Shown one piece after another: positions 3,943-49,641 of a stretch of DNA of 64,000 nucleotides. The stretch comes from Alphaproteobacteria bacterium (GTDB taxonomy: Bacteria; Pseudomonadota; Alphaproteobacteria; Bin95). Position numbers and translations under genes: made by a program. Where the stretch lies: positions 576,001 to 640,000 of the forward strand of contig CAXXWS020000002.1 in the NCBI GenBank assembly GCA_963665325.3, in the 5' to 3' direction. Within the stretch, counting starts at the first letter, position 1, and each line of letters opens with the position of its first letter. Below the pieces are notes generated by a model that did no database searches, was not told where the DNA came from, and saw only the letters and a list, made by a program, of their open reading frames with translations.

Positions 3943-4737
3943 TGCGGCGTTGCCGTTGCGCTGACGCCCTTGTCGATCAACGCCTCGATCTCGGCCCGGT
4001 CCAGCCCGGCCTCGCGGAGCACTTCCTCGCTGTGCTCCCCAGCTCGCGGTGCCTGCCGGCGTATCGACCCCGGCGTTCTAGAGAACGAGACGGGCGGACG
4101 CATATGGACCAGGCGACCTTCGGAGGGATGCTCCATGGTCTGGAAAAAGTCCACGGCCTCCAGGTGCGGGTCGTCGAAAAGGCTTTCGGGCGAGTGCATC
4201 GGCATACAGGGAATGTCAGCGCGTTCGAGATCGGCCAGCCAGTCGGCTGTGGATCGGCGCCGCATGATGTCCGCGAGCGTCCGGTAGAGTTCCTCGATGT
4301 TTCGGCCCCGCGAGGCCATGTCGGCGAAGCGCGGGTCATCCGCCAGCTCCGGATGTCCGGCTATCACGAAAAAGCGCCGCCAGTGGCGGTCGTTGTAAGG
4401 CAACACGCATAGATGGCCGTCGGCGGTCTCGTGAGGCCGACGCCATGGCGTCAGCAGCCGGCCATAGCCCGCCGGCCCGAGCGGTGGGTCGAATGTGCGC
4501 CCCTGTTGGTGCTCGTTCATCACGAAGGAAGCGAAACATTCGAACATGCCGCAATGGATTTCCTGCCCCTCGCCGGTGTTTGCACGGTGGTGGAGCGCCA
4601 TCAGCACCGCGAAGAGCGCGAACAGGCCACTGGTCTTGTCGGCGAATACCGAGGGAGCGTAGCGCGGTGCGCTGCCGCTCTGCTCGCCCTCCAGCCAGGC
4701 GAGGCCAGAGACCCCCTGGATCAGGTCGTCATAGGCT
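3939..4737 (-). pseudogene. 3' half of a CaiB/BaiF (family III) CoA-transferase split by the integrated element
   Basis: Reads AYDDLIQGVSG...FADKTSG...APRAGEHSEEVLRE; joins in frame with 49637-50054 to give a 403-aa protein. Confidence 0.93.
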
Positions 4738-4755
4738 CATAAGCCGACCTCCACA
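4723..4755. other. attL-like junction: core aggct (4733-4737) plus inverted arm gccgacctccaca (4743-4755)
   Basis: aggtcgtcataggct matches 49627-49641 at 13/15; 4743-4755 is the exact reverse complement of 49622-49634. Confidence 0.9.
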
Positions 4756-4772
4756 TCGGTTTCCTGACCGGT

Positions 4773-6593
4773 GTGACGGGGATGGAATTGAGTGATTCGC
4801 AACGAGTTGTCAACAAGCGGTTATCTGGTTTGCGCATCGGGGGCATTCTGTTCTCGTTTTCGGGTGCTGTCCTGCTTGGCGGCTGCGGCTGGTTCGACCA
4901 GGCTGAGGTTGCGCGGGACGCAGCGTCCGTAGAGGACCGCCTGGGTTCGGTCGGCTCGCTGGAGCCGGACAGGCCCGGCTTCCGCTCTCTCACGCAATCC
5001 AGGGATCCCTATCTGGCGTTGCGGCCGGTGGCGGAGGATCGTTCGCTCCTGCCCGAGGACCTGCGCTCGGAGACCGGGATCGTTGTCACGCTGGGCGACG
5101 AGCCGGGCGACGAGGTTCTGGCGCGGCGGATATCGGATGCAGCCGGGCTCGAAGTCCGGCTGGTCGGGGCCGAGTGGCTGGGCGCAGGTGAGAGCCTGGC
5201 TGGCGTCGAGGCGGGCATCGAAGTCCAGAGCGGCGCGCAGGCGAGGGAAGCGTCGGGTGACGCACGCGTTCGAACCGCGTTCAACAGAAGCGGCTTCGTC
5301 TCGGGCTGGCTCTCGTCCTGGTCCGACGAGCTGGCGGGCGAGGCCGGCGTGTGGTCGGGTCCGCTGGACCGGCTGCTGGATGCCTGGACGCAGGCTGCGG
5401 GCTACCGGTGGCAATACGATGACGAGGCGGCGCTGGTCGAGGTCGTGCGTTCCGAGACGCGCATCTTCGGCGTCCACGCCCTGCTCGGCAGCCAGAAATA
5501 CAATGTGACGACGACGACGGTCGGCGCGGGCGGTGAAGCCACGTCCGGATCCTCGTCGCAGTCGATCTCCTCCGAGATGACCTACGACCCCTGGCAGGAG
5601 ATCGGGCCGCAGGCGGTTGCGGCGGCGGGCCCGGAAGGGACGGTCTCGATTTCAGCGGCGTCCGCGACGGTGACGGCGACCGGCCTGCCGCGGGCGGTCG
5701 AGCGGGTGCGGGCGTATCTGGAGCATGTGAACCGTCATGTGCTGCGCCCGGTGACGCTCTCGGTGCATCTCTACTCGGTGCGGTTCGACAAGGGCTCGGA
5801 CTACGAGGTCGGCCTGACGGGCATCCTGCCGGAGGCGTTCGGGTCCAACTTCGCGGTCGGCGTCGACGGCGGCACGATTTCCGTAGTGAGGCCGACATCG
5901 GTCGGGGCCTCCTCCCTGCGCGCAACGGTGAGTGCGCTCCGCAAGGTCGGCACGGCCTCGCGGGTGCTGTCGGTGGACGTGCCGACGCTGAACGGTCGCC
6001 CGGCGCAGTTCTACGACCTGTTCGACCAGGCCTATCTGCAGCAGGTCAGCACCACGATCGAGGATGGCGTGCGGGCGGTGGAGCTGACGCCGGGAACGGT
6101 GTCGTCCGGCTTCGGCCTCAGCTTCGTTGCGCGGATCGTGGCGCCTGACGAGGTTCTGGCGCGCATTACGGCCACCATTCAGGACCGTCCGGAGTTCGCG
6201 GCCTTCGGAGCTGCGGGCAACCAGATCCAGCTTCCGTCGGGCGGCAGGCGCGCGATCGTGGTGACGCAGCGTATCGCGAGGGGCGAGACGCTTCTCCTCA
6301 CGGGCTTCCGCGACCGGTCGTCCTCGGGCGAGCGGTCGGGCACGTTCCATCCGGCGGTGCCGCTGCCGGAGGGCGGCGCGGATGCGGCCATCGCGCGTAT
6401 CGAGACGGCTCTGCTGGTGACGGCCGATATCGGGACGCCGCTCGGCATATCGGAGCGGAGGCTCGGCACGGGGTTCCCGGCCGGCGGTCCGGTCGCCAAG
6501 GTCGAGAGCGGCAATGCGGCCCCGGCGGACCCGGCCCTCCAGGATGCAGTCTCTCCGGCGGCAGGCGGCGCGGCCCGGGAGGCTGGCGGATGA
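4773..6593 (+). CDS. pilN: Type IVb pilus outer-membrane secretin-like lipoprotein (PilN/BfpB family)
   Basis: Lipobox LLGGC; TLNGRPAQF...AYLQQVSTT...LTPGTVSSGF...IQLP secretin C-terminal pattern; start codon uncertain (4773/4782). Confidence 0.75.
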   Translation: MTGMELSDSQRVVNKRLSGLRIGGILFSFSGAVLLGGCGWFDQAEVARDAASVEDRLGSVGSLEPDRPGFRSLTQSRDPYLALRPVAEDRSLLPEDLRSETGIVVTLGDEPGDEVLARRISDAAGLEVRLVGAEWLGAGESLAGVEAGIEVQSGAQAREASGDARVRTAFNRSGFVSGWLSSWSDELAGEAGVWSGPLDRLLDAWTQAAGYRWQYDDEAALVEVVRSETRIFGVHALLGSQKYNVTTTTVGAGGEATSGSSSQSISSEMTYDPWQEIGPQAVAAAGPEGTVSISAASATVTATGLPRAVERVRAYLEHVNRHVLRPVTLSVHLYSVRFDKGSDYEVGLTGILPEAFGSNFAVGVDGGTISVVRPTSVGASSLRATVSALRKVGTASRVLSVDVPTLNGRPAQFYDLFDQAYLQQVSTTIEDGVRAVELTPGTVSSGFGLSFVARIVAPDEVLARITATIQDRPEFAAFGAAGNQIQLPSGGRRAIVVTQRIARGETLLLTGFRDRSSSGERSGTFHPAVPLPEGGADAAIARIETALLVTADIGTPLGISERRLGTGFPAGGPVAKVESGNAAPADPALQDAVSPAAGGAAREAGG

Positions 6594-6809
6594 GTGTGCT
6601 TGTCGTCGGCGGTCACCGTTTCGCGGCCGGTCTCGATTGGGAGCGGGAGGTCCTGCGCGGGGGCAAGGCGGCGAAGGCGGCGCGCGACCGGGGCCATCGC
6701 TGGACGGTCGAGCTCGGCGGGCAGACGGGGTTCCTCGGCGACATAGAGAACCCCGGCGGCCTGGCGCCGCTGGCGGGCGCGCTCGTGGAGTATGTGCGCA
6801 AGCGCCCGG
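6590..6809 (+). pseudogene. 5' fragment of a PilO2-like type IVb pilus accessory gene, truncated by the transposon
   Basis: ATGA overlap with pilN; VGGHRFAAGLDW resembles the PilO2 N-terminus; frame runs into the IS at 6810. Confidence 0.6.
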
Positions 6810-7055
6810 TGAGTGTGCTCTCGGTATCTGATGGCGGGATGGTCACGTTGTTCGATGGTTTTCAGGCGTCGGGCCGGGCGTGACGGCGGGGGTGTCGGAC
6901 GGCCGTCGGCGCGTCAAGCCGCTTCGCGGCTCCTGCGCTGCGCTCCGGCCCTTCGGGTGACCCGCCGCCGTCCCTCCGACGGAGTGCATCCATGGCCGTA
7001 AGCAAGCTTCCGGCCACGGGCCGGCCGCTTTACGCAGTGTGACAATGGGAGCGGT

Positions 7056-7117
7056 GTTACCCGTTACCGTTACCCTCTCTCCCTAGGGGTTCGAGGCGGT
7101 AACGGTTTTCGGTAACG
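7056..7117. repeat. GTTACC/GGTAAC iteron-like cluster around a ccctaggg palindrome (copy 1)
   Basis: Three GTTACC opposed to two GGTAAC at the helicase 3' end. Confidence 0.7.
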
Positions 7118-8081
7118 TGTCCCTGCGGTCGTTGCCGTTGAGGGCGGCGAGGCGGTATCCGCCTTCGGATGCGCGCTCGACGCGTCCTTCGCGGACGAGC
7201 CTGTGCAGCGCCTCGGCGACGGTTGCGGGCCGGGTTGCCGCGCGCTCGCGGATCCGGCGCTGGGAGAGCGGCGCGTCGGCGTCGGCGAGGGCCTGCAGGA
7301 TGCGCCGTTCGGGGGTATCCGGCTCCGGCGCCTGGTCTTCCGGCGTCTCGCGCAACCGCAGGGCGGGGCGCTCGTCGTCGTCGGCGAGTTCGATCTCGAG
7401 GTCTTCGAGGCCAGGGGCGTCGCGATGCTCGACGGTCATGAGGATCTGGCGGTCTCGCCGGCGCAGGTACAGATTCGAATCGCCCCAGGCGTGAAGTTCG
7501 CTGCTGCCGCGCAGCGCCTGCCCGGGCCGGGAGCCGCCGCTCTTTCGTGCGTGATGGACGAGGAGGACGGCGGTTTCGAAGCGGCGCTGTATGTCGCGCA
7601 GGAAGCCCAGCATGGGGGCGACCTCGGCGACGGTATTTTCGTCGACGCCGTGCAGGCGCACGAGGGGGTCGAGGACGACGAGGCGGGGTGAGACGCGCTC
7701 CACCGTCTCGACCAGGCGCTGGCGATCGGCGCGATGGTCGAGACGCAGCGTGGGCACGTCGATGACGGCGATGTCGAGGGTCTCGAACGCGGTGCCTGCC
7801 GCCTTTGCGATGCCCTGGAGGCGTGCGCGCACGATATGGCCGGCGTCCTCGGCGGCGAACAGCAGCACGGGGCCGCTTGCGGCGGGACGGAAGTGGCGCA
7901 GGCAGGGGACGCCGGCGGCGACCGCGACGGCGATGTCGAGTGCGAGGAAGGATTTGCCGCACTTGGGCTCGCCGCCGACGATGCCGACGCCCTGCTCGGA
8001 CCACAACGCCTCGACCATCCAGCGGCGCGCCTGGGGGCGCTCTTCGAGCTCCGCCGGCGCCCGTGTCGGGAAGCCCTTCAC
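7083..8081 (-). CDS. RecA/RepA-like AAA_25 ATPase/helicase with C-terminal HTH
   Basis: Walker A GEPKCGKS, AAED, LVVLDPL, LLVHHARK, LRGSS; GTG start overlaps the ExeA stop. Confidence 0.85.
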   Translation of the reverse strand: MKGFPTRAPAELEERPQARRWMVEALWSEQGVGIVGGEPKCGKSFLALDIAVAVAAGVPCLRHFRPAASGPVLLFAAEDAGHIVRARLQGIAKAAGTAFETLDIAVIDVPTLRLDHRADRQRLVETVERVSPRLVVLDPLVRLHGVDENTVAEVAPMLGFLRDIQRRFETAVLLVHHARKSGGSRPGQALRGSSELHAWGDSNLYLRRRDRQILMTVEHRDAPGLEDLEIELADDDERPALRLRETPEDQAPEPDTPERRILQALADADAPLSQRRIRERAATRPATVAEALHRLVREGRVERASEGGYRLAALNGNDRRDTLPKTVTASNP

Positions 8082-8911
8082 CGCCGCGCCCTCCTCGGCT
8101 TGGCGGGTTCGCCCAGGGTCTCGATGAAGAGCTTCTCGTCGAGGACCTCGCGCTCCTTCTCGGCGGCGGCGGCGAGCAGGGCGTCGGCCATGACGGTGAG
8201 CGCCCGCGGGTTGCCGTCGGCATGGGCGACCAGGGTGTCCTTGAGGCCCGCGGTCATGAGGCCGGGATTGCCGGCCTGCTCGATCAGATGGTCGAGCAGG
8301 GCCGCGAGGTCGCCGGCCTCGGCCTTGGTCATGACCAGGCGCTGGCGGATGCGCGAGGCGATGGGCTGCAGATCGGGCTGGCGGAGCTTGTCGAGCAGGC
8401 GCGTGTCGCCGGCGAGGACGACCGAGAGGATGGCGCGCGAGTCGAAGTCGGTCGAAGCCAGCAGGCGGATCTCGGAGAACACCGAGGGCAGCAGCTCCTG
8501 GGCCTCGTCGACGAGCACGACGGGGCGCATGCGGGTATCGTCGACATGGGCGAGCCAGCGCTCGCGCAGGCTTTTGAAGCTGGCCCAGCGGTTGTTGTAC
8601 ATCAGGTCGACGCCGAACATCTCGCCGATCTCGCGGTAGAAGTCGGACAGCCGGGAGGAGGGATGGGTGATGGCGGCGATGCTGAGCCCCTCGCAGCGGC
8701 CGAGACGGTCGGCGAGCAGGCGCAACGCCACACTCTTTCCGGCGCCGGGCTCGCCGGCGATCAAGGCGAAGCCGCCCTGGCGCACCAGGTGGCGCTCGAT
8801 CCTGAGGCAGAAGCTGTCGACGGCAGGCGTCGCCATGAGACTGTCGACCGGCAGGTCGGTGGCGAAGGGGTTCCACTTGAGCCCGTAGAAGGTGAGCAGT
8901 TCCCGGTTCAT
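8078..8911 (-). CDS. ExeA/TniB/MuB-like AAA ATPase (transposition helper)
   Basis: FYGLKWNPF N-terminus, Walker A GEPGAGKS, Walker B VLVDEAQ, GNPR. Confidence 0.88.
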   Translation of the reverse strand: MNRELLTFYGLKWNPFATDLPVDSLMATPAVDSFCLRIERHLVRQGGFALIAGEPGAGKSVALRLLADRLGRCEGLSIAAITHPSSRLSDFYREIGEMFGVDLMYNNRWASFKSLRERWLAHVDDTRMRPVVLVDEAQELLPSVFSEIRLLASTDFDSRAILSVVLAGDTRLLDKLRQPDLQPIASRIRQRLVMTKAEAGDLAALLDHLIEQAGNPGLMTAGLKDTLVAHADGNPRALTVMADALLAAAAEKEREVLDEKLFIETLGEPAKPRRARR

Positions 8912-10383
8912 GGCGCATCTCCCCGATCTTCGTCCTCGCCCGGACCGGGCGTCTTGTCATGGGGCAGCCAGGCCGGCGGCAGGCCGGTTGCGGCCTGGGC
9001 GTCGAGCATGCCCTTGAGCAGCGGCGGAAGTTCCCCCGTCCCCGCGCCGCCATTGCCATCGTTGCCGCCGGGGCCGGCGGGACGGCGCACGCCATCGGCG
9101 TTGCCGCGCTTGTCGAGGGGGTACAGCGTGCACAGGCGCTCGCCGCCTCGACCGTCGATCAGATCGACGCTGGCGAGGTTCCAGCGCGCGTAACGGATCC
9201 AGGCCTCGCGCAGGTGGCGCCACGGCTGTGGCACCTGGTAGCGGATGCCCTCGACCGAGACGGTGCCGTCCGAGCGCCTGAGCGTGCGCTTCCTGGTGAT
9301 GCGGAAGGCCGCCTTGAGCTCGGCCGAGCCGGGGCAGGATCTCGACGCGTCGACGCTCCCGGCCAGGCGTTGATGCGGCGTCATGCCGAGCTCGCGGTGC
9401 TTGCGGCGGTGATAGTCCTGCTCCAGCCAGGCGATGGTGGCGTCGTTGAGCATCTTCAAGGTAAGCGCGTCGACGCCTTCGAGCTGAGCCATCAGGCGCG
9501 ATTCGACCGTGCCCCAGAACGACTCGATCTTGCCGTTCTGATGGGGGCTGTAAGCGAGCGTCGTGACCCCCGCGATGCCGAGCCGGTGCAACCCCTCCTC
9601 GACCTCGCCCGCGGTCATCGCCGCGCCGTTGTCGGTCAGCAGGGACCTCGGCAGACCGCGCTTCATGAAGGCCTGGCAAAGGCCGTGGACGAACACCTCG
9701 GCGGTCTCGGCGAGGTACCACTGAAGGTGGCAGCCGAGGCGCGAGTGGTCGTCGAGGAAGCCGAGCAGGATCGGCGTCTTCCACTCGCCCGAGGCGGTCA
9801 GCACGCGACGCTTGGCGCTGTGCATGTCGGCGTGCCACAGGGCGTGAGAGCGCGAGACCTCGTAGCTCAATACCTCGCGGGCTTCGACCGCCGGCCTGGC
9901 CTCGCTCTCATGCCACTTGCGCCGGCGCTTGCGTACCAGCCCGCGAGCCCGCATCGCCCGGGTCAGCGTCGCGTAGGACGGTATCGGGCCGAGCTCGGGA
10001 TCGGCCTCGACCCGCGCGGCCAGATTCTCGTGATGAAGCTGCGCCGACCACGACGGATGCGCCCGGTACTGCTCGTGCAGCGCCTCGATCAGCGTCGGCG
10101 ACATCGCGCGCGGGCGCCCGGCATCGGCGCGCGGGCGCCGCTTGAGCGCCCCCACCGGATCGTTGTCCGCCGCCCGCGCCTGGTAGTACCAGCGCTCGAT
10201 CGTGGACACCGCGAAGCGCACCCGGCCCTTGCCGGACGGGTGATCCCACTCGCGTTCGGCAAGCCGCTCAAGCTCGGCGTGCAGCCGCCCCGCCGGCGGC
10301 GGCGAGGCCAGAAGCGGCCCGACCACCGCGAAGCGCAACCGCGCCCACCGGTCGCGACGCTCGCTCCCGTCGTTGCTGTTCAT
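8908..10383 (-). CDS. DDE transposase (IS481/Mu-like, with Mu C-terminal domain)
   Basis: WHAD, LTDNG, NGKIE catalytic triad; DGTVSVEGIRYQVP. Confidence 0.92.
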   Translation of the reverse strand: MNSNDGSERRDRWARLRFAVVGPLLASPPPAGRLHAELERLAEREWDHPSGKGRVRFAVSTIERWYYQARAADNDPVGALKRRPRADAGRPRAMSPTLIEALHEQYRAHPSWSAQLHHENLAARVEADPELGPIPSYATLTRAMRARGLVRKRRRKWHESEARPAVEAREVLSYEVSRSHALWHADMHSAKRRVLTASGEWKTPILLGFLDDHSRLGCHLQWYLAETAEVFVHGLCQAFMKRGLPRSLLTDNGAAMTAGEVEEGLHRLGIAGVTTLAYSPHQNGKIESFWGTVESRLMAQLEGVDALTLKMLNDATIAWLEQDYHRRKHRELGMTPHQRLAGSVDASRSCPGSAELKAAFRITRKRTLRRSDGTVSVEGIRYQVPQPWRHLREAWIRYARWNLASVDLIDGRGGERLCTLYPLDKRGNADGVRRPAGPGGNDGNGGAGTGELPPLLKGMLDAQAATGLPPAWLPHDKTPGPGEDEDRGDAP

Positions 10384-10431
10384 TCCGGCATCCCCCTCGC
10401 TGCTTCGTGGAGGTGCCGATGATGCGGTGCC

Positions 10432-11046
10432 CTATCCGTGCATCATAGAAACGCTTTCTGCGGGCGAAGCCGGACCTGCGCCGAGCGCGCAAAAGCCGGT
10501 CCACGGCATCAGCCAGACCAGGCTCCGCAGCAGCCGCGAGCGGAAGCCACGGCCCCGCATGATGCGCAGCAGCCGGCGCAGCGGCGCCTCTTCGGGCGGC
10601 GCCGCCAGCTCGCCCCGTCTCGCCTGCCACTCCCGGGTCAGCGGGAAGGCTTCCAGCCACCAGCGCCGCCAGCGCTTCAGCGTCGAGGCCGGAACCCCGC
10701 ACCGCCGCGCGATCGTCTGCAACCGCGCGCCGCCGGCCACAGCCAGCGCACTCACCACAAGGAACAGCGCCCCGACGTAAAAGCGCCTGCCGAAGAAACG
10801 CACCGACGGCGGCTTCACGCGGCGTCGGCACACCGAACAGCACAGGCTGAAGCGCCGAACGTCGTTCCGAAGATTCGCCGCCAGACCGTGCGGCTTGCGC
10901 GGGTAGCTCGCGCTGTGAAGCGCGCCGCCGCAGCGCGGGCAACCCGCCGCCCGGCACGCCTCCGCCTCGGCCGCGTCGACCTGCTTCAGAAAATCCCAAA
11001 CCCGGGCGTTGGAGAGATTGGAGTGCCGGAACAGCTTGTGCGACAT
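10432..11046 (-). CDS. Transposon accessory protein with Zn-ribbon (CPRC/CSVC) and HTH
   Basis: CPRCGG...CCSVC, VPASTLKRWRRWW; first gene of the element. Confidence 0.7.
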   Translation of the reverse strand: MSHKLFRHSNLSNARVWDFLKQVDAAEAEACRAAGCPRCGGALHSASYPRKPHGLAANLRNDVRRFSLCCSVCRRRVKPPSVRFFGRRFYVGALFLVVSALAVAGGARLQTIARRCGVPASTLKRWRRWWLEAFPLTREWQARRGELAAPPEEAPLRRLLRIMRGRGFRSRLLRSLVWLMPWTGFCALGAGPASPAESVSMMHG

Positions 11047-11193
11047 TGGGGCCGTCTCAGGTTGATGTCACTGTCACCGAGACAAGCCCTCCGGCGGCCT
11101 TCTTGCAAGATCGCCGGGGGGCACCCAATCCAAAACCTCGATTAATCCGAGCCGATCAGCCCCTGATCGCCGCTGAAAGCCTGCGCCCGCTCA

Positions 11194-11268
11194 CTCGGTG
11201 AGTTCCTCGACCTTCTTGTGCTCGACCGGGTCGAGTTCGTCGATGAGGCTTTGGACGTTGAGAGGCAT
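11194..11268 (-). pseudogene. First 25 codons of a probable HigA/XRE antitoxin, truncated by the transposon
   Basis: MPLNVQSLIDELDPVEHKKVEELTE, TGATG-coupled to the toxin stop and terminated by the TGA of the IS end. Confidence 0.7.
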
Positions 11269-11633
11269 CAGCGTGGTCCTTTCTCTGCGAGCCGGGCAAG
11301 GTGGCGGTCGAAACGCTCGTCGGCCTTTCGGATGAGGTCTCGATAGAAGCGGCGGCTCGGGCGGCCCGACTTATCGCTAGCTACGAAGAGGATGGCGTTG
11401 CGGTGCGGGTCGAAGGCGAAGGCGATTCGCCACTCGCCCTGGGCGGCGGTGAGTCGCACTTCCTTCATGTTTACATGGCGGGACCCGTTGAGGGTGACGA
11501 CATAGGGCCGGCCGAGGTGGGGGCCATGCTCGCGAAGGATATTCGTTGTTGCGAGAATGGTTCTCCTTACTTCGGTTGGTAGATTGCGGTACTCCGGCAC
11601 GAATTCGTCGGCCAGCTCGACGTGCCAGTTCAT
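11268..11633 (-). CDS. RelE/HigB (Gp49-like) type II toxin
   Basis: GPHLGRP..TLNGSRH.NMKE.R...WRIAFAFDP.R.AIL...DKSG...FY..LI..AD. Confidence 0.85.
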   Translation of the reverse strand: MNWHVELADEFVPEYRNLPTEVRRTILATTNILREHGPHLGRPYVVTLNGSRHVNMKEVRLTAAQGEWRIAFAFDPHRNAILFVASDKSGRPSRRFYRDLIRKADERFDRHLARLAEKGPR

Positions 11634-11639
11634 GACTGG

Positions 11640-11668
11640 AGCTTGTTGCGCCGGGTGGCGCAAGTCAA
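11640..11668 (-). promoter_or_regulatory. Putative toxin promoter with palindromic operator TTGCGC-N6-GCGCAA (11646-11663)
   Basis: Minus strand TTGACT-N17-CAAGCT just ahead of the ATG; the palindrome fills the spacer. Confidence 0.5.
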
Positions 11669-11713
11669 GGTTGCGGGGTGGAGCATGGTGGCCTCCTGGG
11701 CAAGCAACGGTCG

Positions 11714-11756
11714 TCGGGACGAAATCTGTTCTGAACTTGGGTATCGGGACGAAATC
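11714..11756. repeat. 13-bp direct repeat tcgggacgaaatc x2
   Basis: Copies at 11714-11726 and 11744-11756. Confidence 0.7.
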
Positions 11757-11779
11757 GGGTTGGACCGGGCGGAGATGAC

Positions 11780-11813
11780 AAAAAAAGGGGCCGCCGCTGG
11801 TTAGCGACGGCCC
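11780..11813 (-). terminator. Intrinsic terminator after ssb
   Basis: gggccgccgct/agcgacggccc stem with T7 on the minus strand. Confidence 0.75.
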
Positions 11814-11847
11814 GGGTTGGGGAGGAAGACAGGGAGGCGCGACGTCC

Positions 11848-12279
11848 TCAGAAGGGGATGTCGCTGTCGAGGTCGGCCGGTGCCGGGACGGGGTTCGACG
11901 CTGCGGGCTCGCGGTTGATGCCGAAGTCGTGGTCCTTGTCGAGGAACTGGATGCGTCCGCTCGGGACGACGAGGATCTCGGTCGAGTAGCGGTCGTTGCC
12001 GTCCTGGTCCTGCCACTTCCGGGTCTGGAGCTTGCCCTCGACCTGGACCAGCCGGCCCTTGACCGCCTTGCGCTCGAGGATGTCGACCAGGCCGTCCTGG
12101 AAGGTGGTGACGCGGTGCCATTCGGTCTTCTGGACGCGCTCGCCCCGGTTCTTGTCGTAATAGCCCTCGTCGGTGGCGATCGAGATATTTGCGACCTTCG
12201 TGCCGGTGGCGAGGTGGGAGATCGCGGCGGCGGCGCCGAGGCGACCGATGAGGAGGACCCTGTTCATTCCGAAAGCCAT
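11848..12279 (-). CDS. ssb: Single-stranded DNA-binding protein
   Basis: NRVLLIGRLG, TEWHRV, VEGKLQTRKW, acidic tail DSDIPF. Confidence 0.93.
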   Translation of the reverse strand: MAFGMNRVLLIGRLGAAAAISHLATGTKVANISIATDEGYYDKNRGERVQKTEWHRVTTFQDGLVDILERKAVKGRLVQVEGKLQTRKWQDQDGNDRYSTEILVVPSGRIQFLDKDHDFGINREPAASNPVPAPADLDSDIPF

Positions 12280-12376
12280 GGGATGGCTCCTTCGTTGTCT
12301 GGATGTTGACTTGAGTTGGGAACCGGACGACCGGACCGGGTGGCCCGATCGTCATTCGGTTCATCCGTGACCGGCT

Positions 12377-12547
12377 CTACTCAAACTCTTCGATGTCGAA
12401 GCGTGCGCCGGCGGGAGGGTTGTCGGGCAGGATCTCGCGGATCGCGCGGCCGCTGAGCCCGATTTCGGAGAGCAGTTCGCCGGTGGTGCCGGACGCTGGA
12501 TGGTCGCGCGGCTTGACGTGCTCGGTGGCATCGAAGTCATGGAACAT
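12377..12547 (-). CDS. Small hypothetical protein (56 aa)
   Basis: ATG preceded by GAAGG; co-oriented with its neighbours. Confidence 0.45.
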   Translation of the reverse strand: MFHDFDATEHVKPRDHPASGTTGELLSEIGLSGRAIREILPDNPPAGARFDIEEFE

Positions 12548-12789
12548 GGAAGCGCCTTCCGTTGGAGTGGGCCCGGTGTGCCGGGCGTCTACGCGGAAAG
12601 GGCTTTGCTCAATCTCATGGCACCGTTTTTCGGTGCCAGGGCGCTTGCGTGGGCCTTCGGCGATAGGCCGACGGGGTACAAGCAGAAGGGCCGGCACTAC
12701 GTGAGCACCGGCCCTGGCAAGCGGCTGGTTGTGGCGGCGGGTCAGGGGATGAGCTTTACCGCGGCGCGTGCAGGTGTGGGAGCTAAGGT

Positions 12790-13236
12790 CTAGCTTGCTG
12801 GAGCGACACTTGGCGCGGTGTTCCGAATGAGGGCATCGAGGGCCTTCATGGTTTGCGTATGGCGCTTGTCGAGGGCCTTCATGACTTCCTCGTGGCGCCG
12901 TTCGCTTTCCGCGCGCTCGGCGGCAAGGGAAGCCATGGCTTCCTTGTGGCGATCGGCCTCGGCATTCATGGCTTCCTTGTGGCGGTCGCCTTCGGCCTCC
13001 ATGGCGTCCTGGTGGCGAGCGTCGCGCTTCTCGCTGGCTTCGGTCATCCTGGCTATGCCGCGGGCGACGACGCGGATCTGGAAGAAGCCGATAACGCATC
13101 CGGCGACGACCAGGGCGGCGGTAACGATGACGAGGGCGGCGGTGACGGTCACCATGTCGCCGGTGGCGATGGCGGTAGCGGCTTGCGGATTCGTTGGCGC
13201 CAGCGTTGTTATGTCGGTGAAGAACATTTCGTACAT
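12790..13236 (-). CDS. Membrane-anchored coiled-coil protein with 11-residue RHxEAM repeats
   Basis: Strong RBS AAGGAGG; hydrophobic helix, then RHQDAM/RHKEAM/RHKEAM/RHEEVM/RHTQTM. Confidence 0.7.
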   Translation of the reverse strand: MYEMFFTDITTLAPTNPQAATAIATGDMVTVTAALVIVTAALVVAGCVIGFFQIRVVARGIARMTEASEKRDARHQDAMEAEGDRHKEAMNAEADRHKEAMASLAAERAESERRHEEVMKALDKRHTQTMKALDALIRNTAPSVAPAS

Positions 13237-13395
13237 CGTTTAGCCCTCCTTTGGCGGGGTCGCAAGTTGGCGCGGCGGGTGTTCCTTCCGCGCGAAGTCA
13301 CCCGTACGGGGCTGTCCTCTGCTTGCGGATCGCGACAGGGTGGCGGGTAGTTGCGGGCCGAAGGCCGCTGAACGGTGGCCGGCGGCGCATGCATG

Positions 13396-13425: not shown

Positions 13426-13446
13426 AGCTGGGGGAGGAAAGGTCCG

Positions 13447-14390: not shown

Positions 14391-14411
14391 GGGCAAGGCT
14401 CCTGGACGGTG

Positions 14412-41755: not shown

Positions 41756-42472
41756 CTATCTGCGGGACCGGCGCCAGCCGGCGGCGCGCGCGTCGGCCTC
41801 GCTGCAAAACCAGCGTTCGCCGCTGGATTCGTCGATGCCGGTCCGCTCGTAATATTTGCCGCCGGGAACATGATAGATGCGGCCGTTCGAGCTGATGTTG
41901 CCCTTGATGAGGCATGCGCCGGCGCTTCGCGATGGCGCGGTCCGGGGTTGGCGGCCATGCCTTGAGGTGCTGCGACTTTGCTGATGGCGGCGCCAACGCC
42001 AGGGCTCGATGAAGGAACCGGACCACAAGCCGCGTTGCGCTTCGCGAGCCGCGTCCTCGTCAGGGACATAGCGCGTCGAGTAGCGACGGTATGCGAGGGC
42101 CAGGCCTTGTCGCACGAGCTCCTGCTGCAGGTCCCGGCCGTTGGCGAAGCAGGCGCCGATCGCGCGGCCGTATTTTCCGCGCCCGCTGACCCGGCAACGC
42201 AGCGTGTTGCGGCCGACGAGCTTGCGCATGGCCTGGGTGGCCGCCTTTCCGCATGCCCACTGGCGGCCGTCGCGGGAGCAGGTCTGACGGCTCTCGGGGG
42301 CGTCTATCCCTTCGAGGCGAATGTGTTGTCCGGCGACGGCCAGGGTATCGCCGTCGATGACGCGTACGTCGCCGATAAGTGTTTCGGCACCGGCGGGGGT
42401 GAGGCAGAGCAGGACAGCTCCTGTTGCGAGAGCGGCTCGCAGGGCAGAGAGCCATAGCGGTGAGATTGTCAT
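41756..42472 (-). CDS. Secreted thermonuclease (SNase-like) with C-terminal CxIKGN...WFC domain
   Basis: Signal peptide; VIDGDT, IRLEGIDAPE, KYGR, AREAQRGLW. Confidence 0.9.
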   Translation of the reverse strand: MTISPLWLSALRAALATGAVLLCLTPAGAETLIGDVRVIDGDTLAVAGQHIRLEGIDAPESRQTCSRDGRQWACGKAATQAMRKLVGRNTLRCRVSGRGKYGRAIGACFANGRDLQQELVRQGLALAYRRYSTRYVPDEDAAREAQRGLWSGSFIEPWRWRRHQQSRSTSRHGRQPRTAPSRSAGACLIKGNISSNGRIYHVPGGKYYERTGIDESSGERWFCSEADARAAGWRRSRR

Positions 42473-43350
42473 TGCGCGTCATTCCGGTGGCGGTATCGGT
42501 CTTGGCCGGTGGAGAGAAGCGGCCGGCGCCGTCTTCGTAGAATGACGGTCACATAACCTCTGCTGATGCCGACCCTGCCGGCGATGTCCTTGTGGGGTAT
42601 CCGGAGGGTGGCTGCGAAAACTATCAGGTCGTCGCGGATGCGGTGCCGGGTATGAGCCTCGCGAATGGCAAAGGCAGCCCGGCATCGGGGGCCGCAGAAT
42701 TTGCCGGAACGAGTCCTTGCCCGGCTGCCGCATTCGTTCGCGCACCAGGGCTTTCGGGCTTCGGTCCAGGCCTGCTGGCAGGCGGAACTGCAGAAGCGGC
42801 GGTGGCGCCGTGGCGTTGAGGCGTTGCAGCCTCGCGCTTCGCAGGAACGCTCATCGTCCGGGGCCGGTCGGACAACGACGTTCGAGACGGTTCTGGGGTG
42901 AATGCCGTGGCAGGATGCAATGCGGCTGTGCGGTGTGCCTGAGGCGGCATCGCGGGCGATTCTGCCGTTGCGGTCGCCGTTCGCAGCCGCCCAGTACCGG
43001 CGCGCGAAGGCGTGATAGCACGACCGGGAGCAGAACTTCGCGCTGCCCCGCTTCACGGGCTTCGTACAGTTGGCGCACTTGTGGAGATGGAGGCGCCGGG
43101 AGGCGACGAAACAGGTATGGGAGCAGTAGCGGTTTGTTGACCGGGGGACCTTGTTGGTGCAGCCGGGCAGGTCGCAGAAGCGCGGAATTTGAGTTGGGCC
43201 GCGGGGCCAGGTCCAGCCCTCGCGGCGCGCGATGCCGTAAACGGTGGAGCGCGAAAGGCCGTAATCCGCGGCAATAGAGGGGATGCTCTGTCCGCTCGAA
43301 ATCGCGCGGCTGATTTCGGCGTCGCGGGCGGCATACCGGCGTCTGGCCAT
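42469..43350 (-). CDS. Modular HTH-(ZnF)2-HTH-(ZnF)2-HTH protein
   Basis: Three HTH-like segments and four CxxC...[YF]C[SG]xxC motifs. Confidence 0.7.
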   Translation of the reverse strand: MARRRYAARDAEISRAISSGQSIPSIAADYGLSRSTVYGIARREGWTWPRGPTQIPRFCDLPGCTNKVPRSTNRYCSHTCFVASRRLHLHKCANCTKPVKRGSAKFCSRSCYHAFARRYWAAANGDRNGRIARDAASGTPHSRIASCHGIHPRTVSNVVVRPAPDDERSCEARGCNASTPRRHRRFCSSACQQAWTEARKPWCANECGSRARTRSGKFCGPRCRAAFAIREAHTRHRIRDDLIVFAATLRIPHKDIAGRVGISRGYVTVILRRRRRPLLSTGQDRYRHRNDAQ

Positions 43351-46510: not shown

Positions 46511-47385
46511 GTTGCTGTTCCTCTCTGGGTTTCGTGCCTGGTTCGAATGATTCGGCCAGGGACGTGTCTTGTGGTTGCCAGATCGCGGATGTGCTCCACG
46601 AGAAAGCCGCGTTCGCGGTACTCGGTAACGACGAGGTAGGCGAAGGTTCGTGCTTCGGGTTCGAACAGATGATCCGGTCGAGGGCGCTTATGGAGCGACA
46701 CGCGGTGCCTGATGCTTTCGGCAAAGCAGGCGGCAAGAACGGCTGCAGAGGAACGCTCGCTTCCGATCATGGCGCGCGCGAACTCCCACGAGGGAATGCA
46801 GCGCCAGTCGCGGCGAACAATCTCCCGGGCGCGATACATGAAGGCGGGCCAGTCTGGTTCGTATGGATGGATGCGCTGGAGATAGGTCAGATGAGGGAGC
46901 GGGCCCGAATATACGAAACCGGGATGGCCGTCGCGTTCCATCCATAGCTCGATCTCGCCGTGCAGCTCCTTGCGGATATGCTCGACGGCATCGCGATAGG
47001 GATCGGTAACGGGCGCTGTGCTGTTGAAGGCTTCGGCAACGTGTTTCAGGAACTGGCGATCGGTGCGAAACGGAGGACGGTCGGGGCGCAGCATCGCAAA
47101 CAGCGCCGCGGCCGTTGCCATGCGCGGATTGGTGGCTTGCGACAGCTGGGCCCAGTCTGCGGGCGCGATGGTGAGTTCTTCGCATGCCAGATGCCGCGTT
47201 CGGTCGATGAGCCAGGCCCAGCCCCATGGAGCCGAGGGGCGGTCGGCATCGAGTTCCCAGCGGACGAAGCCATGGAGGTCCTCGATCTCGTCGAGTGTCG
47301 GCCATCGATTGCCGGCGGGATCGAGCTCGTGGGAGCTGACCGGCTCGAGGACGTCGGGGAATTGAGCGCGGTATCGCCGTCTCAT
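46507..47385 (-). CDS. Hypothetical protein with two degenerate RepC-C-terminal-like repeats
   Basis: ATGA-coupled to repC and parA; W..(L/F)...(A/T)R....L.....W..A pattern occurs twice. Confidence 0.6.
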   Translation of the reverse strand: MRRRYRAQFPDVLEPVSSHELDPAGNRWPTLDEIEDLHGFVRWELDADRPSAPWGWAWLIDRTRHLACEELTIAPADWAQLSQATNPRMATAAALFAMLRPDRPPFRTDRQFLKHVAEAFNSTAPVTDPYRDAVEHIRKELHGEIELWMERDGHPGFVYSGPLPHLTYLQRIHPYEPDWPAFMYRAREIVRRDWRCIPSWEFARAMIGSERSSAAVLAACFAESIRHRVSLHKRPRPDHLFEPEARTFAYLVVTEYRERGFLVEHIRDLATTRHVPGRIIRTRHETQRGTAT

Positions 47386-49373
47386 CGGGGCGGCTCCTGC
47401 ACGGCGGAAGCCGTTGCTTTGTCGCGTTGCGGTGGCGTCGGCGGTTGTTCGCGGCGGCCGGCGAGGGCCGGGTAACCGGGGGCGGGGTGTTGCAGGAGCC
47501 GGACATGGCGGCCGAGTGACCCGGGCGCAGCCTCCTCTTCCCGGACGAAATGCAGGAACGCCGCCTCAGGATCGCGCCCGGAGGGGTCCAGGCGCCGTTC
47601 GGCAATGACAGCGACGATCATGCCGATGACCGTCGTTCTGTGCAGGCCCAGGGTCTCCATTGCGCCGCGCCAGGCCGGGCCTGAGACGGACAGGGTCTGG
47701 AGGCATTCGGTCATGGCCGCGTGCATGAGGTGTAGCCATCGGCGCCGTCCCCGGGAATGAGGGCCGAGCCGTTTCCGGATGCTCGCGGGAACGATGGGCT
47801 CCAGCGCCTCTAGGGAGGGTGCGAGAGGATCGGGGGGCGTTTCCCGGACTTCGACGGTTTCGATGAGGTCGATATCGGGTTCCGGGCCGGGCGGGGTGCT
47901 GCACTGCTGCGGCGGGTGTGGTTGGTCGGGTGGCGGCGAAGGCGCGGTTTCGGTGTCGGGTGCAGCGGGCGGCATCCGGTCGACCATGCCCCATAGCGAT
48001 TTCGAGAGGTCGAGTTCTCCCTTGCGGGCAGCGTCCAGCATGCCGCGCAGATAACCGCCGGCGGACCGGATTTCGCCGGCATCGGACCGGGAGGCGACCA
48101 CGGCGATCGCCAGGGAGGCGCCGTCCGGCGAAAGCTGCTGGCAGGCCTCGCGCCAGGCGCCCGGAGAGACGCCGAGACGACTGCGGGTGAGGTTGGCGGC
48201 TGCCTGGAAGTCCGTGGAAGTCGGTTCGGTGCCTTCGGGCAGGTGGGCGGCGAAGGAGGGCGGGAGAGACTCAAGGATCAGCCAGCCGGGGGGCGCCTTG
48301 CTGTTTCGGGAGGGCCGGCGACTACCTTCCTCCCTTTCCGGCCCAGGGCGGGCGGCGGGCGGTGCGTTCGGGTGAGGGGTGGTTGCGGTTTGAGGACCCG
48401 TCGCTACAGGAATTTCAATTTCAGATTCATTTGTAAGTGTAATTGGCTGCGGGGGATTTTCGCTGGTAAGGCAGCGAATATTTGTTGCCTTACCATCAAG
48501 ATTCGATGCAGCAGAGAACTCATCGGGCGGGGCTGAAGGGGGCGTGGAAGTCAGCGCGGCGACGAGGTCGGCCTCGAGCGCCTCGGCGTCATGGCGAAGC
48601 TCGAAGAGCGCGGAGAGCGGGAGCCTGGTGAGGGCGGTGGTCGGCCAGAGCGCCTCGATGCGGGATTGCAGGCGCCGGGTCGCAGGTTCGTCGACCGGCA
48701 GGCGGCCGTCTTCGATCGCCTGTTCGAGCGTTTCCTTGTTGCTTTTCCGGAGACTCCTGATCTGCTGGCGTAGAAGACGGTGCGTGTGGTGCTCCTCGTC
48801 TGCGTCTTCGGCGGTCTGAAGAACAAGCGGCAGCAGCGTGGCAATGGGCGAGAGGTCGAGGCCGAACGGAATGCGCTCGCCGGTTTTCGGGTCGTAGTGG
48901 ACCTTGCGGTGACAGTTGGTGCTGTCGCGCATGGCCAGGACGCCGAGCTCCATGAGGCGTCGCAGGTGGTAGCGGACGTTCGAGTCCGACTTGCAGCTGA
49001 AGAGCTCCTTCAGCGCGCCCTGGGGCAGCCAGACCATCGGGCGCGAACTGTCTTTCCAGTCGCGCGCGGTGGTCACGCCTATGAGCGTCTCCGTCAGAAA
49101 CACCTGGTGGGGTGACCAGCCGAGCCTGGCCGCGACGTCGTGTTTCTTGAGGGCGCGGGTGATCGTGAAGCGGTCTGTGCCTTCCGGCAGGCCGCACCAT
49201 TCGTTGGCACGGCGAAGGGCTTCCAGATAGGCCCGGTCCCGCTTGCGTGTGCCGGACGGGTTGGGGCTGCGGGAAGGTCCGGCGCCCGTCGAGGGGGTCG
49301 TAGGATGTTGTTCAAGCATGTTTTTCGACGCTCGGCGGCGTCCATGCCTCGATCCCCACTTTTTTCGCTCCAC
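47382..49373 (-). CDS. repC: RepC-family plasmid replication initiator with extended C-terminus (start may be 49319)
   Basis: RPMVW, LRRLMELG...RDSTNCHR...FGLDLSP; LGVSPGAWREA...IRSAGGYLRGM. Confidence 0.85.
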   Translation of the reverse strand: MERKKWGSRHGRRRASKNMLEQHPTTPSTGAGPSRSPNPSGTRKRDRAYLEALRRANEWCGLPEGTDRFTITRALKKHDVAARLGWSPHQVFLTETLIGVTTARDWKDSSRPMVWLPQGALKELFSCKSDSNVRYHLRRLMELGVLAMRDSTNCHRKVHYDPKTGERIPFGLDLSPIATLLPLVLQTAEDADEEHHTHRLLRQQIRSLRKSNKETLEQAIEDGRLPVDEPATRRLQSRIEALWPTTALTRLPLSALFELRHDAEALEADLVAALTSTPPSAPPDEFSAASNLDGKATNIRCLTSENPPQPITLTNESEIEIPVATGPQTATTPHPNAPPAARPGPEREEGSRRPSRNSKAPPGWLILESLPPSFAAHLPEGTEPTSTDFQAAANLTRSRLGVSPGAWREACQQLSPDGASLAIAVVASRSDAGEIRSAGGYLRGMLDAARKGELDLSKSLWGMVDRMPPAAPDTETAPSPPPDQPHPPQQCSTPPGPEPDIDLIETVEVRETPPDPLAPSLEALEPIVPASIRKRLGPHSRGRRRWLHLMHAAMTECLQTLSVSGPAWRGAMETLGLHRTTVIGMIVAVIAERRLDPSGRDPEAAFLHFVREEEAAPGSLGRHVRLLQHPAPGYPALAGRREQPPTPPQRDKATASAVQEPPR
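48405..48520. other. AT-rich intragenic segment of repC, probable oriV
   Basis: Marked AT-rich island with GATTC (GANTC) sites in the middle of repC, as in repABC replicons. Confidence 0.6.
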
Positions 49374-49437: not shown

Positions 49438-49477
49438 CTTGCTTGCTTGCTTGCTTGCTTGCGAAGCGAAGCGAAGC
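49438..49477. repeat. Microsatellite (GCTT)5 followed by (GCGAA)3
   Basis: Visible directly. Confidence 0.9.
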
Positions 49478-49520
49478 AGTGGGGACTTAGGTTACAGTCC
49501 GATTTTTCGGGCTAGGATCA

Positions 49521-49554
49521 GGGGAGCGGGAGTGGTTGCCCGCTCCCCTTTTTC
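49521..49554 (+). terminator. Intrinsic terminator
   Basis: ggggagcggg-N8-cccgctcccc followed by TTTTT. Confidence 0.8.
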
Positions 49555-49561
49555 TTGCCTC

Positions 49562-49590
49562 TTGACCGCCAGATTTCTGCCGAGCATAAT
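49562..49590 (+). promoter_or_regulatory. sigma70-like promoter pointing outward across attR
   Basis: TTGACC-N17-CATAAT. Confidence 0.65.
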
Positions 49591-49621
49591 CTCCCGGCCT
49601 GTTTGTCTAAGGGCAGTCAGG

Positions 49622-49641
49622 TGTGGAGGTCGGCACAGGCT
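49622..49641. other. attR-like junction: arm tgtggaggtcggc plus core aggct
   Basis: See attL (4723-4755). Confidence 0.9.

What the first reader, a model, noticed from the sequence alone, without database searches (positions are those of the whole stretch)
4723..49641. RepC-replicon element integrated by a serine recombinase into a conserved CoA-transferase motif, with fully reconstructable att sites
Seen: joining the ends gives attP = TGTGGAGGTCGGC-acaggc|tcataa-GCCGACCTCCACA, a perfect 13-bp inverted repeat whose centre (CT) lies in the shared AGGCT core. The left arms of attB and attP match at 13/15, so the 5' gene half reads KPA-CADL instead of KPA-YDDL. Known: large serine recombinases cross over at a central dinucleotide within inverted arms, and RepC replicons are normally free plasmids. 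Inference: this is an integrative-and-replicative plasmid/ICE hybrid. It targets the PAYD motif of a gene family that is often multicopy, and provides a candidate LSR-attP-attB set.
Basis: partly seen in the sequence, partly recalled or inferred. Interest (0 to 1): 0.8.

Follow-up and report, generated by a model that had tools for sequence, protein, structure and literature searches.

The report
Serine-integrase island splitting a CoA-transferase gene
A 45-kb mobile element sits inside a CoA-transferase gene, inserted by its own large serine recombinase at sites that can be read off exactly, but it is the stripped-down remnant of a conjugative element, not a complete plasmid/ICE hybrid.

Summary
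Window 4737-49640 (44.9 kb) cleanly splits a family III CoA-transferase gene. All 14 same-genus orthologous loci that could be judged have the uninterrupted gene. The two ends carry exact 13-bp inverted arms. The symmetry centre (CT) lies in the 5-bp AGGCT shared by both junctions.

The element encodes one site-specific recombinase, an intact large serine recombinase (LSR, 39919-41568). It encodes no tyrosine recombinase.

In 12 of 13 RepC-homologue loci of the genus a homologous arm lies 218-263 bp beyond repC. In 8 of 8 paired elements attL and attR share the dinucleotide exactly 18 nt inside the arms (CT, AG, GA or AA). The arm variant follows the LSR clade. A metagenomic relative (LSR 83% identical) has the identical junction in the same gene.

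The "plasmid/ICE hybrid" reading is only partly right. Larger paralogues carry a TrwC relaxase, a coupling protein, DotA/DotB-like proteins and type IVB pilus genes. The window copy keeps only pilN. A 4.4-kb IS copy without target duplication sits where that module should be.

RepC passes NCBIfam's RepC cut-off, but replication is untested. The target family has 48 matches in the genome, yet no second attB-like site exists.

Verdict: a well-supported new member of a known kind.

The parts
3939..4736 (-). 3' part of the split family III CoA-transferase gene
   Evidence: Pfam CoA_transf_3 profile 133-366, E 5.6e-51; contiguous with the 5' part in 14 of 14 relatives
4720..4755 (.). attL: host half-site, shared core AGGCT (4733-4737), element-side arm (4743-4755)
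4773..6593 (+). PilN-family type IVB pilus lipoprotein; first gene, 36 bp inside attL
   Evidence: NCBIfam TIGR02520, E 1.5e-42 but below cut-off; homologues at 38-95% identity at the same end of related elements
6590..6809 (+). first 73 codons of the gene after pilN, cut off by the IS copy
   Evidence: 100% identical over 73 aa to the start of a 431-aa gene in the G000:C1 paralogue
6810..11193 (+). IS-like unit, copy 1 (HTH 204 aa, rve transposase 491 aa, AAA_25 protein 670 aa); no target duplication
11268..17462 (-). Gp49-like toxin domain gene, two SSB genes, Toprim-like ORF, coiled-coil ORF with 21-nt repeats, PAPS-reductase-like gene
17490..17826 (-). 3' fragment of the Strawberry-notch-like helicase gene
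   Evidence: matches residues 1376-1484 of the G000:C1 homologue
17827..22210 (-). IS-like unit, copy 2, inverted, 100% identical to copy 1, flanked by the 5-bp duplication ACTGT
22211..26348 (-). 5' part of the Strawberry-notch-like helicase gene
   Evidence: Pfam AAA_34 and Helicase_C_4
26601..39066 (-). RadC, HicA-domain ORF, DUF2958, 601-aa ORF, 789-aa ParB_N protein, DUF7146-Toprim, 1036-aa YspA/SLOG protein
   Evidence: syntenic with the G000:C1 paralogue
39606..39959 (+). HU-like DNA-binding protein
   Evidence: Pfam Bac_DNA_binding, E 6e-21
39919..41568 (-). large serine recombinase, 549 aa
   Evidence: Pfam Resolvase + Recombinase; YARYSSPRQ motif; start and four Cys invariant in 14 homologues
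41756..42472 (-). SNase-like nuclease with sunset domain
   Evidence: 77% identical to a gene of the G000:C1 paralogue
42469..43350 (-). HTH protein, 293 aa
43800..46510 (-). two ParB_N proteins and a 219-aa ParA
47382..49373 (-). RepC-like initiator, 663 aa
   Evidence: Pfam RP-C + RP-C_C; NCBIfam RepABC_RepC 160.8 bits against a cut-off of 150
49483..49555 (+). conserved hairpins ending in an intrinsic-terminator-like stem; antisense to the repC leader
   Evidence: no Rfam family
49562..49590 (+). outward-facing sigma-70-like promoter (TTGACC, 17 nt, CATAAT)
   Evidence: TTGAC and CACAAT/CATAAT are kept in 10 of 12 aligned homologous ends
49622..49660 (.). attR: element-side arm (49622-49634), shared core AGGCT (49636-49640), host half-site
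49617..50054 (-). 5' part of the split CoA-transferase gene, reading into the element for 6 codons
   Evidence: Pfam CoA_transf_3 profile 1-134, E 7.8e-52

Best explanation
Window 4737-49640 is an integrated mobile element. Its own large serine recombinase (39919-41568) inserted it by recombination between an attP formed by the two element ends and an attB inside one particular family III CoA-transferase gene. The crossover was at the central dinucleotide CT.

The element belongs to a genus-wide family of conjugative elements. Family members are bounded on one side by a RepC-like gene with an antisense hairpin/terminator and an outward promoter. On the other side they are bounded by pilN, the first gene of a type IVB pilus / Dot-Icm-like transfer region.

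In this copy the transfer region (relaxase, coupling protein, mating pore) has been lost next to an IS copy. What remains is a non-self-transmissible remnant. It keeps the integrase, RepC, ParA/ParB and the establishment genes (SSB, ParB-nuclease, Toprim, Strawberry-notch helicase, RadC).

Inferred, not shown: after excision RepC and ParAB would maintain the circle, and the outward promoter would read across attP into pilN. Transfer genes in intact relatives would then be switched on only in the excised form.
For: - **Clean split and empty sites.**
- **Arms and core.**
- **Only one candidate recombinase.** 0 of 64 Phage_integrase matches and 1 of 12 Resolvase matches of the genome fall inside the element. 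The rve genes belong to the IS copies.
- **LSR looks intact.** It has the Ser motif, both Pfam domains and four invariant Cys.
- **Family test, RepC end.** TGTGGNGG lies 218-263 bp beyond repC in 12 of 13 RepC-homologue loci.
- **Family test, pilN end.** CCNCCACA lies 25-38 bp before pilN in 8 of 22 pilN-homologue loci.
- **Shared dinucleotide.** In 8 of 8 paired ends the dinucleotide 18 nt inside the arms is the same in attL and attR. The extra identity varies in side and length.
- **Second element confirmed.** The G000:C1 paralogue has empty sites in 14 of 17 genus loci. Two of the remaining three are occupied by related elements, and one lies at a contig end.
- **Arm variant follows LSR clade.** TGTGGAGG occurs with the window LSR and its 3 metagenomic relatives at 83-85% identity, 4 of 4. 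TGTGGTGG occurs at the other 11 loci, whose genomes' best LSR matches are at most 44-45% identical to the window's. The one RepC locus without the motif lies in a genome whose best LSR is 36% identical. The pilN loci without the motif carry a different conserved arm.
- **Same site in a relative.** L110 has the same junction in the same gene.
- **Loss of the transfer module.**
- **Promoter and terminator.**
Against: - No recombination, excision or circular form was observed. The assembly holds no paired arms. The public runs were contigs only and showed no attP joint.
- The LSR gene starts about 8.1 kb from attR rather than next to an att site.
- No recombination directionality factor was identified.
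- Pfam's Zn_ribbon_recom domain was not detected in this LSR. The structure model is poor, with mean pLDDT 53.
- Two of three close LSR relatives (L109, L112) sit in other flanks with dinucleotide TT. Target choice within the clade is therefore not fixed.
- The RepC is only 26-35% identical to any plasmid RepC in PLSDB, so its function as an initiator is an assumption.
- The kinship of the sampled genomes means the 8 pairs are at least 6 distinct sites, not 8 independent events.
Confidence: 0.8

Rival explanations
1. The element is a still-active integrative plasmid. It excises, replicates through RepC as a free plasmid, and is mobilised by the conjugative paralogues in the same genome.
For: The LSR, RepC, ParA and ParB ORFs are all intact. 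The repC leader hairpins and the promoter are conserved. Paralogous elements with a relaxase and coupling protein are present in the same genome. Close relatives of the LSR module exist in three metagenomic contigs.
Against: No free or circular copy is present in the assembly or in the contigs laid. No oriT, relaxase or directionality factor was identified. Two IS insertions have hit the element, and one of them disrupts the Strawberry-notch gene.
Confidence: 0.3
2. The insertion was made in trans by another serine recombinase of the genome (for example that of the G000:C1 paralogue), and the resident LSR is a passenger.
For: The genome holds several LSR paralogues at 33-43% identity. Their attP arms are homologous to the window's.
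Against: The arm variant and the central dinucleotide differ from those of the paralogues, and they travel with the window's LSR clade in 4 of 4 cases.
Confidence: 0.05
3. The element is a transposon inserted by a DDE transposase. On this reading AGGCT is a 5-bp target duplication and the 13-bp repeats are terminal inverted repeats.
For: A 5-bp direct repeat flanks the element. The rve transposases inside it make 4-5-bp (mostly 5-bp) duplications.
Against: The repeats start 2 and 5 nt inside the AGGCT copies, which is asymmetric. Across 8 related pairs the shared stretch varies from 4 to 6 nt and shifts side, and only the dinucleotide at a fixed 18 nt from the arms is constant. The rve genes belong to a separate 4,384-bp unit with its own ends and 24 copies. 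Related elements sit in specific gene positions.
Confidence: 0.03

Closest known systems
Serine-recombinase integrative elements (Tn4451/TnpX and serine-recombinase IMEs of Firmicutes from the review PMC5704250, passages read; Tn5397/TndX and SCCmec Ccr named from recall)
   Same: A single large serine recombinase, very short direct repeats in attL and attR, and integration inside and disruption of a dispensable gene (PMC5704250, section 2.1 passages).
   Different: Those elements are mostly in Firmicutes. This one is in a high-GC, probably alphaproteobacterial genome. It has a RepC/ParAB module, and its relatives have an IncI/Dot-Icm-like transfer region. The NCBIfam matches to XisF and CcrA/B/C are far below their cut-offs.
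Computationally paired LSR-attP-attB sets (Durrant et al. 2022, PMC10083194; abstract seen in the search listing only)
   Same: The same logic applies: attP and attB are rebuilt from an integrated element and an empty site.
   Different: I could not check whether this LSR is in their set, because supplements are closed. Here eight related sets share one attP scaffold but differ in central dinucleotide and target.
repABC / RepC plasmids of Alphaproteobacteria
   Same: RP-C and RP-C_C domains are present, the protein scores above NCBIfam's RepABC_RepC cut-off, and there is an antisense hairpin-terminator in the repC leader. The ctRNA analogy is from recall.
   Different: There is no repA-repB-repC operon. 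The ParA is 219 aa, and the RepA/RepB models score far below their cut-offs. The protein is 663 aa and at most about 35% identical to PLSDB RepCs. All 3 RP-C genes of the genome lie in integrated elements and none on the four smaller replicons.
ICEs with replication or partition functions (TnGBS theta replication; SXT/R391 partition; PMC5704250 section 2.2 passages) and pKLC102/PAPI-1-type ICEs with type IVB pilus genes (recalled)
   Same: An integrated conjugative element that also carries plasmid-like initiator and partition genes. Pilus genes lie at one end.
   Different: The integrase here is a serine recombinase, not a DDE or tyrosine enzyme. The relaxase in the relatives is TrwC-type. 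The window copy lacks the transfer genes.
Tn916-type coupling of transfer-gene transcription to circularisation (recalled, not read here)
   Same: An outward promoter at one end faces, in the circle, the first transfer-region gene at the other end. There are only 36 bp between attL and pilN.
   Different: This is purely inferred here, and there are no transcript data.

Membership tests
Large serine recombinase (serine integrase) | N-terminal resolvase-type catalytic domain with the serine nucleophile | tested here: met
   PF00239, E 1.5e-18; YARYSSPRQ near the N-terminus; S18 and S19 invariant in 14 homologues
Large serine recombinase (serine integrase) | Recombinase domain (PF07508) following the catalytic domain | tested here: met
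   PF07508, E 6.2e-18
Large serine recombinase (serine integrase) | Zinc-ribbon domain with an embedded coiled coil | tested here: inconclusive
   PF13408 was not detected. Four invariant Cys (C324, C327, C341, C350) are present. Strands at 321-341 and long helices at 378-447 are predicted at block-mean pLDDT about 56-83 (highest, 75-83, over residues 361-410), within a poor model of mean pLDDT 53.
Large serine recombinase (serine integrase) | att sites of about 40 bp with inverted arms around a non-palindromic central dinucleotide shared by attP and attB | tested here: met
   13-bp exact arms with CT at the centre; the same register holds in 8 of 8 related pairs with CT, AG, GA or AA
Large serine recombinase (serine integrase) | Catalyses attP x attB recombination | not testable with these tools
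   Needs a recombination assay
Integrative and conjugative element (ICE) | Own integration/excision module | tested here: met
   LSR plus att sites
Integrative and conjugative element (ICE) | Relaxase | tested here: not met
   No relaxase domain was found in the ORFs scanned. The TrwC relaxase of the G000:C1 paralogue has no tblastn match in the window.
Integrative and conjugative element (ICE) | Type IV coupling protein | tested here: not met
   0 of 10 PF02534 matches of the genome lie in the element
Integrative and conjugative element (ICE) | Mating-pair formation genes | tested here: not met
   Only pilN and 73 codons of the next gene remain. DotA/TraY and DotB/TraJ homologues are present in the paralogue only.
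repABC-type replicon | RepC initiator | tested here: met
   RP-C and RP-C_C; NCBIfam NF040974 at 160.8 bits against a cut-off of 150
repABC-type replicon | repA-repB-repC operon with RepA/RepB partition proteins | tested here: not met
   repC comes first and is separate. ParA scores 38.9 bits against 348 for partition_RepA, and ParB scores 37.8 against 201.5 for partition_RepB.
repABC-type replicon | Autonomous replication | not testable with these tools
   No free copy is present in the assembly

The most novel reading that the evidence does not exclude
The window element and its relatives define an undescribed family of Dot/Icm- and IncI-pilus-type ICEs with three features.

1. A divergent LSR clade uses one conserved attP scaffold (outer TGTGGNGG arms, crossover 18 nt inside). 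It has diversified its central dinucleotide and its intragenic target, giving a natural set of possibly orthogonal integrase/att pairs.
2. A RepC lineage not seen on free plasmids, with a ctRNA-like antisense element, maintains the excised circle.
3. A conserved outward promoter reads across attP into pilN, so the transfer genes are expressed only after excision.
Probability: 0.35. Interest if true: 0.6.

Novelty: new member of a known kind. Interest (0 to 1): 0.45.

Why it matters
- It gives a fully specified, testable LSR-attP-attB triple. With the relatives it gives about six to eight related triples that share an attP scaffold but differ in crossover dinucleotide and target. That is useful material for studying how serine integrases change specificity, and as candidate orthogonal integration tools.
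- It shows that in this multi-replicon genome the only RepC-type initiators belong to integrated elements. This blurs the line between plasmid and ICE in a way already known in principle.
- It documents how an abundant 4.4-kb IS strips an ICE of its transfer genes.
- Integration inside genes by serine recombinases and ICEs with replication modules are both established, so this is a solid but not surprising case.

Tried and rejected
- **Close LSR relatives in genomes.** The genome-contig scan returned 4 loci, all 24-26% identical Clostridia sequences of no use. The order-level genome search covered the same 37 genomes as the family search and found none above 44%. PLSDB tblastn gave 235 records, all below 60% identity, the best full-length one at 35%.
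- **RepC in PLSDB.** 1,590 records matched, none covering 80% of the query, with identities of 26-35%.
- **Genus naming.** A flank megablast against plasmids gave only short 71-82% matches to Methylobacterium, Paracoccus and Sphingobium. I did not pursue this further.
- **Rfam.** No family reached gathering score in the window. Only two chance-level matches lay near the repC leader.
- **Sequencing runs.** 22 runs were listed, all held as contigs. Four were laid on 44641-52640.
  - Contigs of X19 (record 9, 48239-49866) and X20 (record 19, 49340-49866) bridge attR.
  - X1 record 6 matches only from 49627 rightwards, with 2,665 further letters that do not lie on the stretch. That fits an empty site but was not shown.
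  - No joint or loose end at 49640 was listed among those printed (224 loose ends and 426 pieces were not shown).
  - Nothing can be said about excision or circles from these data.
- **Structure model of the LSR.** The model built from 14 close homologues was poor (mean pLDDT 53, pTM 0.39), so no fold search was run.
- **attB scan.** The first attB-like scans returned nothing: because of a one-base slip in the slice, and at the 12-mismatch limit with the corrected slice.
- **More flank of L109 and L112.** It could not be fetched, because more than half of each metagenome record was already held. The 1.1 kb of L112 flank shows the junction 56 bp upstream of an unnamed ORF.
- **Literature.** Searches for a described element of this kind found none. 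This covers only the open-access library held. Supplements are closed, so the LSR tables of PMC10083194 could not be checked.

Full report
**What is there.**
The window lies on a 1.34-Mb replicon (C3) of a five-replicon, 5.58-Mb, 67% G+C genome.

On the minus strand a family III CoA-transferase gene is cut in two. Pfam profile positions 1-134 are encoded by 49620-50054, and positions 133-366 by 3942-4736. The 44.9 kb between them (4737-49640) is foreign.

I searched 61 related genomes with the left flank. That gave 14 same-genus loci (L008-L021) in which both flanks could be placed, and in all 14 they abut directly. L022 is at a contig end, and L023-L026 matched only the neighbouring gene.

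The empty sites show that AGGCT (4733-4737 and 49636-49640) is the only stretch shared by the two junctions. Its last base is the wobble base of an Ala codon, which varies among the relatives.

- The 13-mer TGTGGAGGTCGGC lies at 49622-49634 (+) and 4743-4755 (-). These are the only exact copies in the window. They are two of six in the genome; the other four are unpaired and in unrelated contexts.
- Joined, the ends give 13 + 12 + 13 nt whose central two bases are CT, inside AGGCT.
- The left halves of attB and attP agree at 13 of 15 positions. This is why the 5' gene fragment reads ...KPACADLHT-stop.

**Which enzyme.**
None of the genome's 64 Phage_integrase matches lies in the element. One of its 12 Resolvase matches does. 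That match is the 549-aa protein at 39919-41568, with Resolvase and Recombinase domains and the motif YARYSSPRQ. Its start codon, serines and four cysteines are invariant in 14 homologues of 61-100% identity.

Pfam's zinc-ribbon model is not matched. The AlphaFold model is poor (mean pLDDT 53), although its best-predicted part shows the expected strands and long helices. The nearest solved structure is the SPbeta integrase, at E 2.7e-8 only.

The rve transposases in the element belong to two copies of a separate 4,384-bp IS-like unit.

**The refutation test: do homologous elements end elsewhere?** They do not.
- **Paralogous elements.** The genome holds paralogous elements with LSRs 33-43% identical to this one.
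- **RepC end.** Across the genus, 12 of 13 loci with a RepC homologue carry TGTGGNGG 218-263 bp beyond the repC start.
- **pilN end.** 8 of 22 loci with a homologue of the first left-end gene carry CCNCCACA 25-38 bp before it.
- **Paired ends.** For eight elements both ends could be paired. In 8 of 8 the dinucleotide lying 18 nt inside the outer arm is the same in attL and attR (CT; AG four times; GA; AA twice). The extra identity around it varies from 0 to 4 nt and changes side. This is what a serine-recombinase crossover predicts, and not what a fixed-length target duplication predicts. Three of the AG elements share one target, so these are at least six distinct sites.
- **A second verified element.** The 157-kb element G000:C1:1970243-2126890 splits a hotdog-fold hydratase gene. 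Its empty site is present in 14 of 17 genus loci. Two of the other three are occupied by related elements, and one is at a contig end.

**The arm sequence follows the recombinase, not the neighbouring genes.**
- The variant TGTGGAGG occurs with the window LSR and with all three metagenomic relatives whose LSR is 83-85% identical.
- The other 11 loci have TGTGGTGG. Their LSRs are at most 44-45% identical to the window's.
- The single RepC locus without the motif is in a genome whose best LSR is 36% identical.
- The 14 pilN loci without the motif mostly carry a different conserved arm, with a junction near CCATGA. In the complete genome G012 these pair with LSRs of the 34% group.
- One relative, L110, has the identical arm, dinucleotide and host half-site in the same CoA-transferase gene.
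- L109 and L112 have one arm substitution each, the dinucleotide TT and other flanks.

**What kind of element.**
Reading leftwards from attR, the element encodes:
- a RepC-like protein (above NCBIfam's RepC cut-off);
- an unknown 292-aa ORF;
- ParA and two ParB_N proteins;
- an HTH protein and an SNase-like protein;
- the LSR and an HU-like protein;
- a block typical of conjugative-element establishment regions: YspA/SLOG, DUF7146-Toprim, ParB-nuclease, DUF2958, HicA, RadC, Strawberry-notch helicase, a PAPS-reductase-like gene and two SSBs.

The first gene at the left end is a PilN-family type IVB pilus lipoprotein.

There is no relaxase, coupling protein or mating-pore gene. The 157-kb paralogue has all of these: a TrwC relaxase, a TraG-like coupling protein, DotB/TraJ and DotA/TraY homologues and PilV-like proteins.

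Synteny shows what happened in the window.
- The right IS copy is a simple insertion into the Strawberry-notch gene, with the 5-bp duplication ACTGT.
- The left IS copy has no duplication. It cuts the gene after pilN at codon 73 and abuts the SSB region.

The transfer module was therefore lost at an IS. The window element is a remnant of an ICE, not an ICE.

**RepC and the right end.**
The genome has only three RP-C genes, and all three are in these integrated elements. No PLSDB plasmid has a RepC more than about 35% identical.

Between repC and attR, on the strand opposite to repC, the 12 aligned ends share two features:
- hairpins ending in a terminator-like stem with compensatory changes (10 of 36 predicted pairs);
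- a sigma-70-like promoter pointing outwards (TTGACC, 17 nt, CATAAT, 10 of 12 consensus positions, kept in 10 of 12 sequences).

Only 36 bp separate attL from the pilN start. I therefore infer that in the excised circle this promoter transcribes across attP into the pilus/transfer operon, and that the antisense hairpin RNA controls repC as in repABC plasmids. Neither point is shown, and Rfam has no matching family.

**The target.**
The family is highly multicopy here, with 48 Pfam matches. However, no site in the genome is within 12 of 38 mismatches of the rebuilt attB. The three sites at 13 mismatches are unrelated. The element targets one orthologue, not the family.

**What was not obtained.**
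No attP joint, repaired attB or circle was seen.

**Comparison with what is known.**
- Integration of serine-recombinase elements inside dispensable genes, and replication or partition genes in ICEs and IMEs, are described in PMC5704250 (passages read).
- Large-scale pairing of LSRs with att sites is described in PMC10083194 (abstract only).
- I found no description of this family in three literature searches.

I file the element as a new member of a known kind. Confidence in the att sites and the enzyme is high, in the ICE-remnant reading good, and in the replication and promoter-coupling ideas moderate.

Noticed in passing
window 6810-11193 and 17827-22210; 22 further places in G000: A 4,384-bp IS-like unit is present in 24 copies over all five replicons. 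It has three genes: a 204-aa HTH protein, a 491-aa rve transposase nearest to IS481 but far below cut-off, and a 670-aa AAA_25 plus HTH protein. The copies are essentially identical (22 of 4,384 bp, two of 4,383 bp including one with a frameshift in the transposase, and one with 2 kb inserted), mostly with 4-5-bp (mostly 5-bp) target duplications. Many copies sit inside the paralogous ICEs.
   Followed up: partly
G000:C2:25283 and G000:C4:930514 (IS copies): The flanks of these two IS copies match crosswise: the left flank of one fits the right flank of the other. This suggests a past recombination between replicons C2 and C4 through the IS.
   Followed up: no
G000:C1:1970243-2126890: This is a 157-kb paralogous ICE in a hotdog-fold hydratase gene, carrying about 8 IS copies. 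It has a TrwC relaxase, a coupling protein, DotA/DotB-like genes, PilV-like genes, and two small Phage_integrase-domain ORFs at 2037637-2039688 that could be shufflon recombinases.
   Followed up: partly
G000:C1:2338697-2344530: A degenerate third element lies in a UxaA/SAF-like gene. It has RepC, ParA, ParB, only the last 94 residues of an LSR (72% identical to the window's), HU and HicA, and is then cut by an IS. A related end sits in the same target in G016:C1:3012322.
   Followed up: partly
G000:C3:457891-547181 and 13 other pilN loci in the genus: A second class of elements has the same pilN end gene but an LSR only 33-36% identical. These elements carry a different conserved arm, and the junctions lie next to CCATGA. 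In G012 one such element appears nested inside an element of the first class.
   Followed up: partly
window 49421-49477: A run of TTGC x5 followed by GAAGC x3 lies in the repC leader. The read-laying tool skipped it as a repeat.
   Followed up: no
window 15967-16209: Nine copies of a 21-nt period lie inside a 152-aa coiled-coil ORF.
   Followed up: no
window 44641-52640 in run X19: The contigs covering the element and bridging attR have word depth 2-3, while the flank contigs have about 90-100. The contigs may come from different strains in the run, so nothing is concluded.
   Followed up: no
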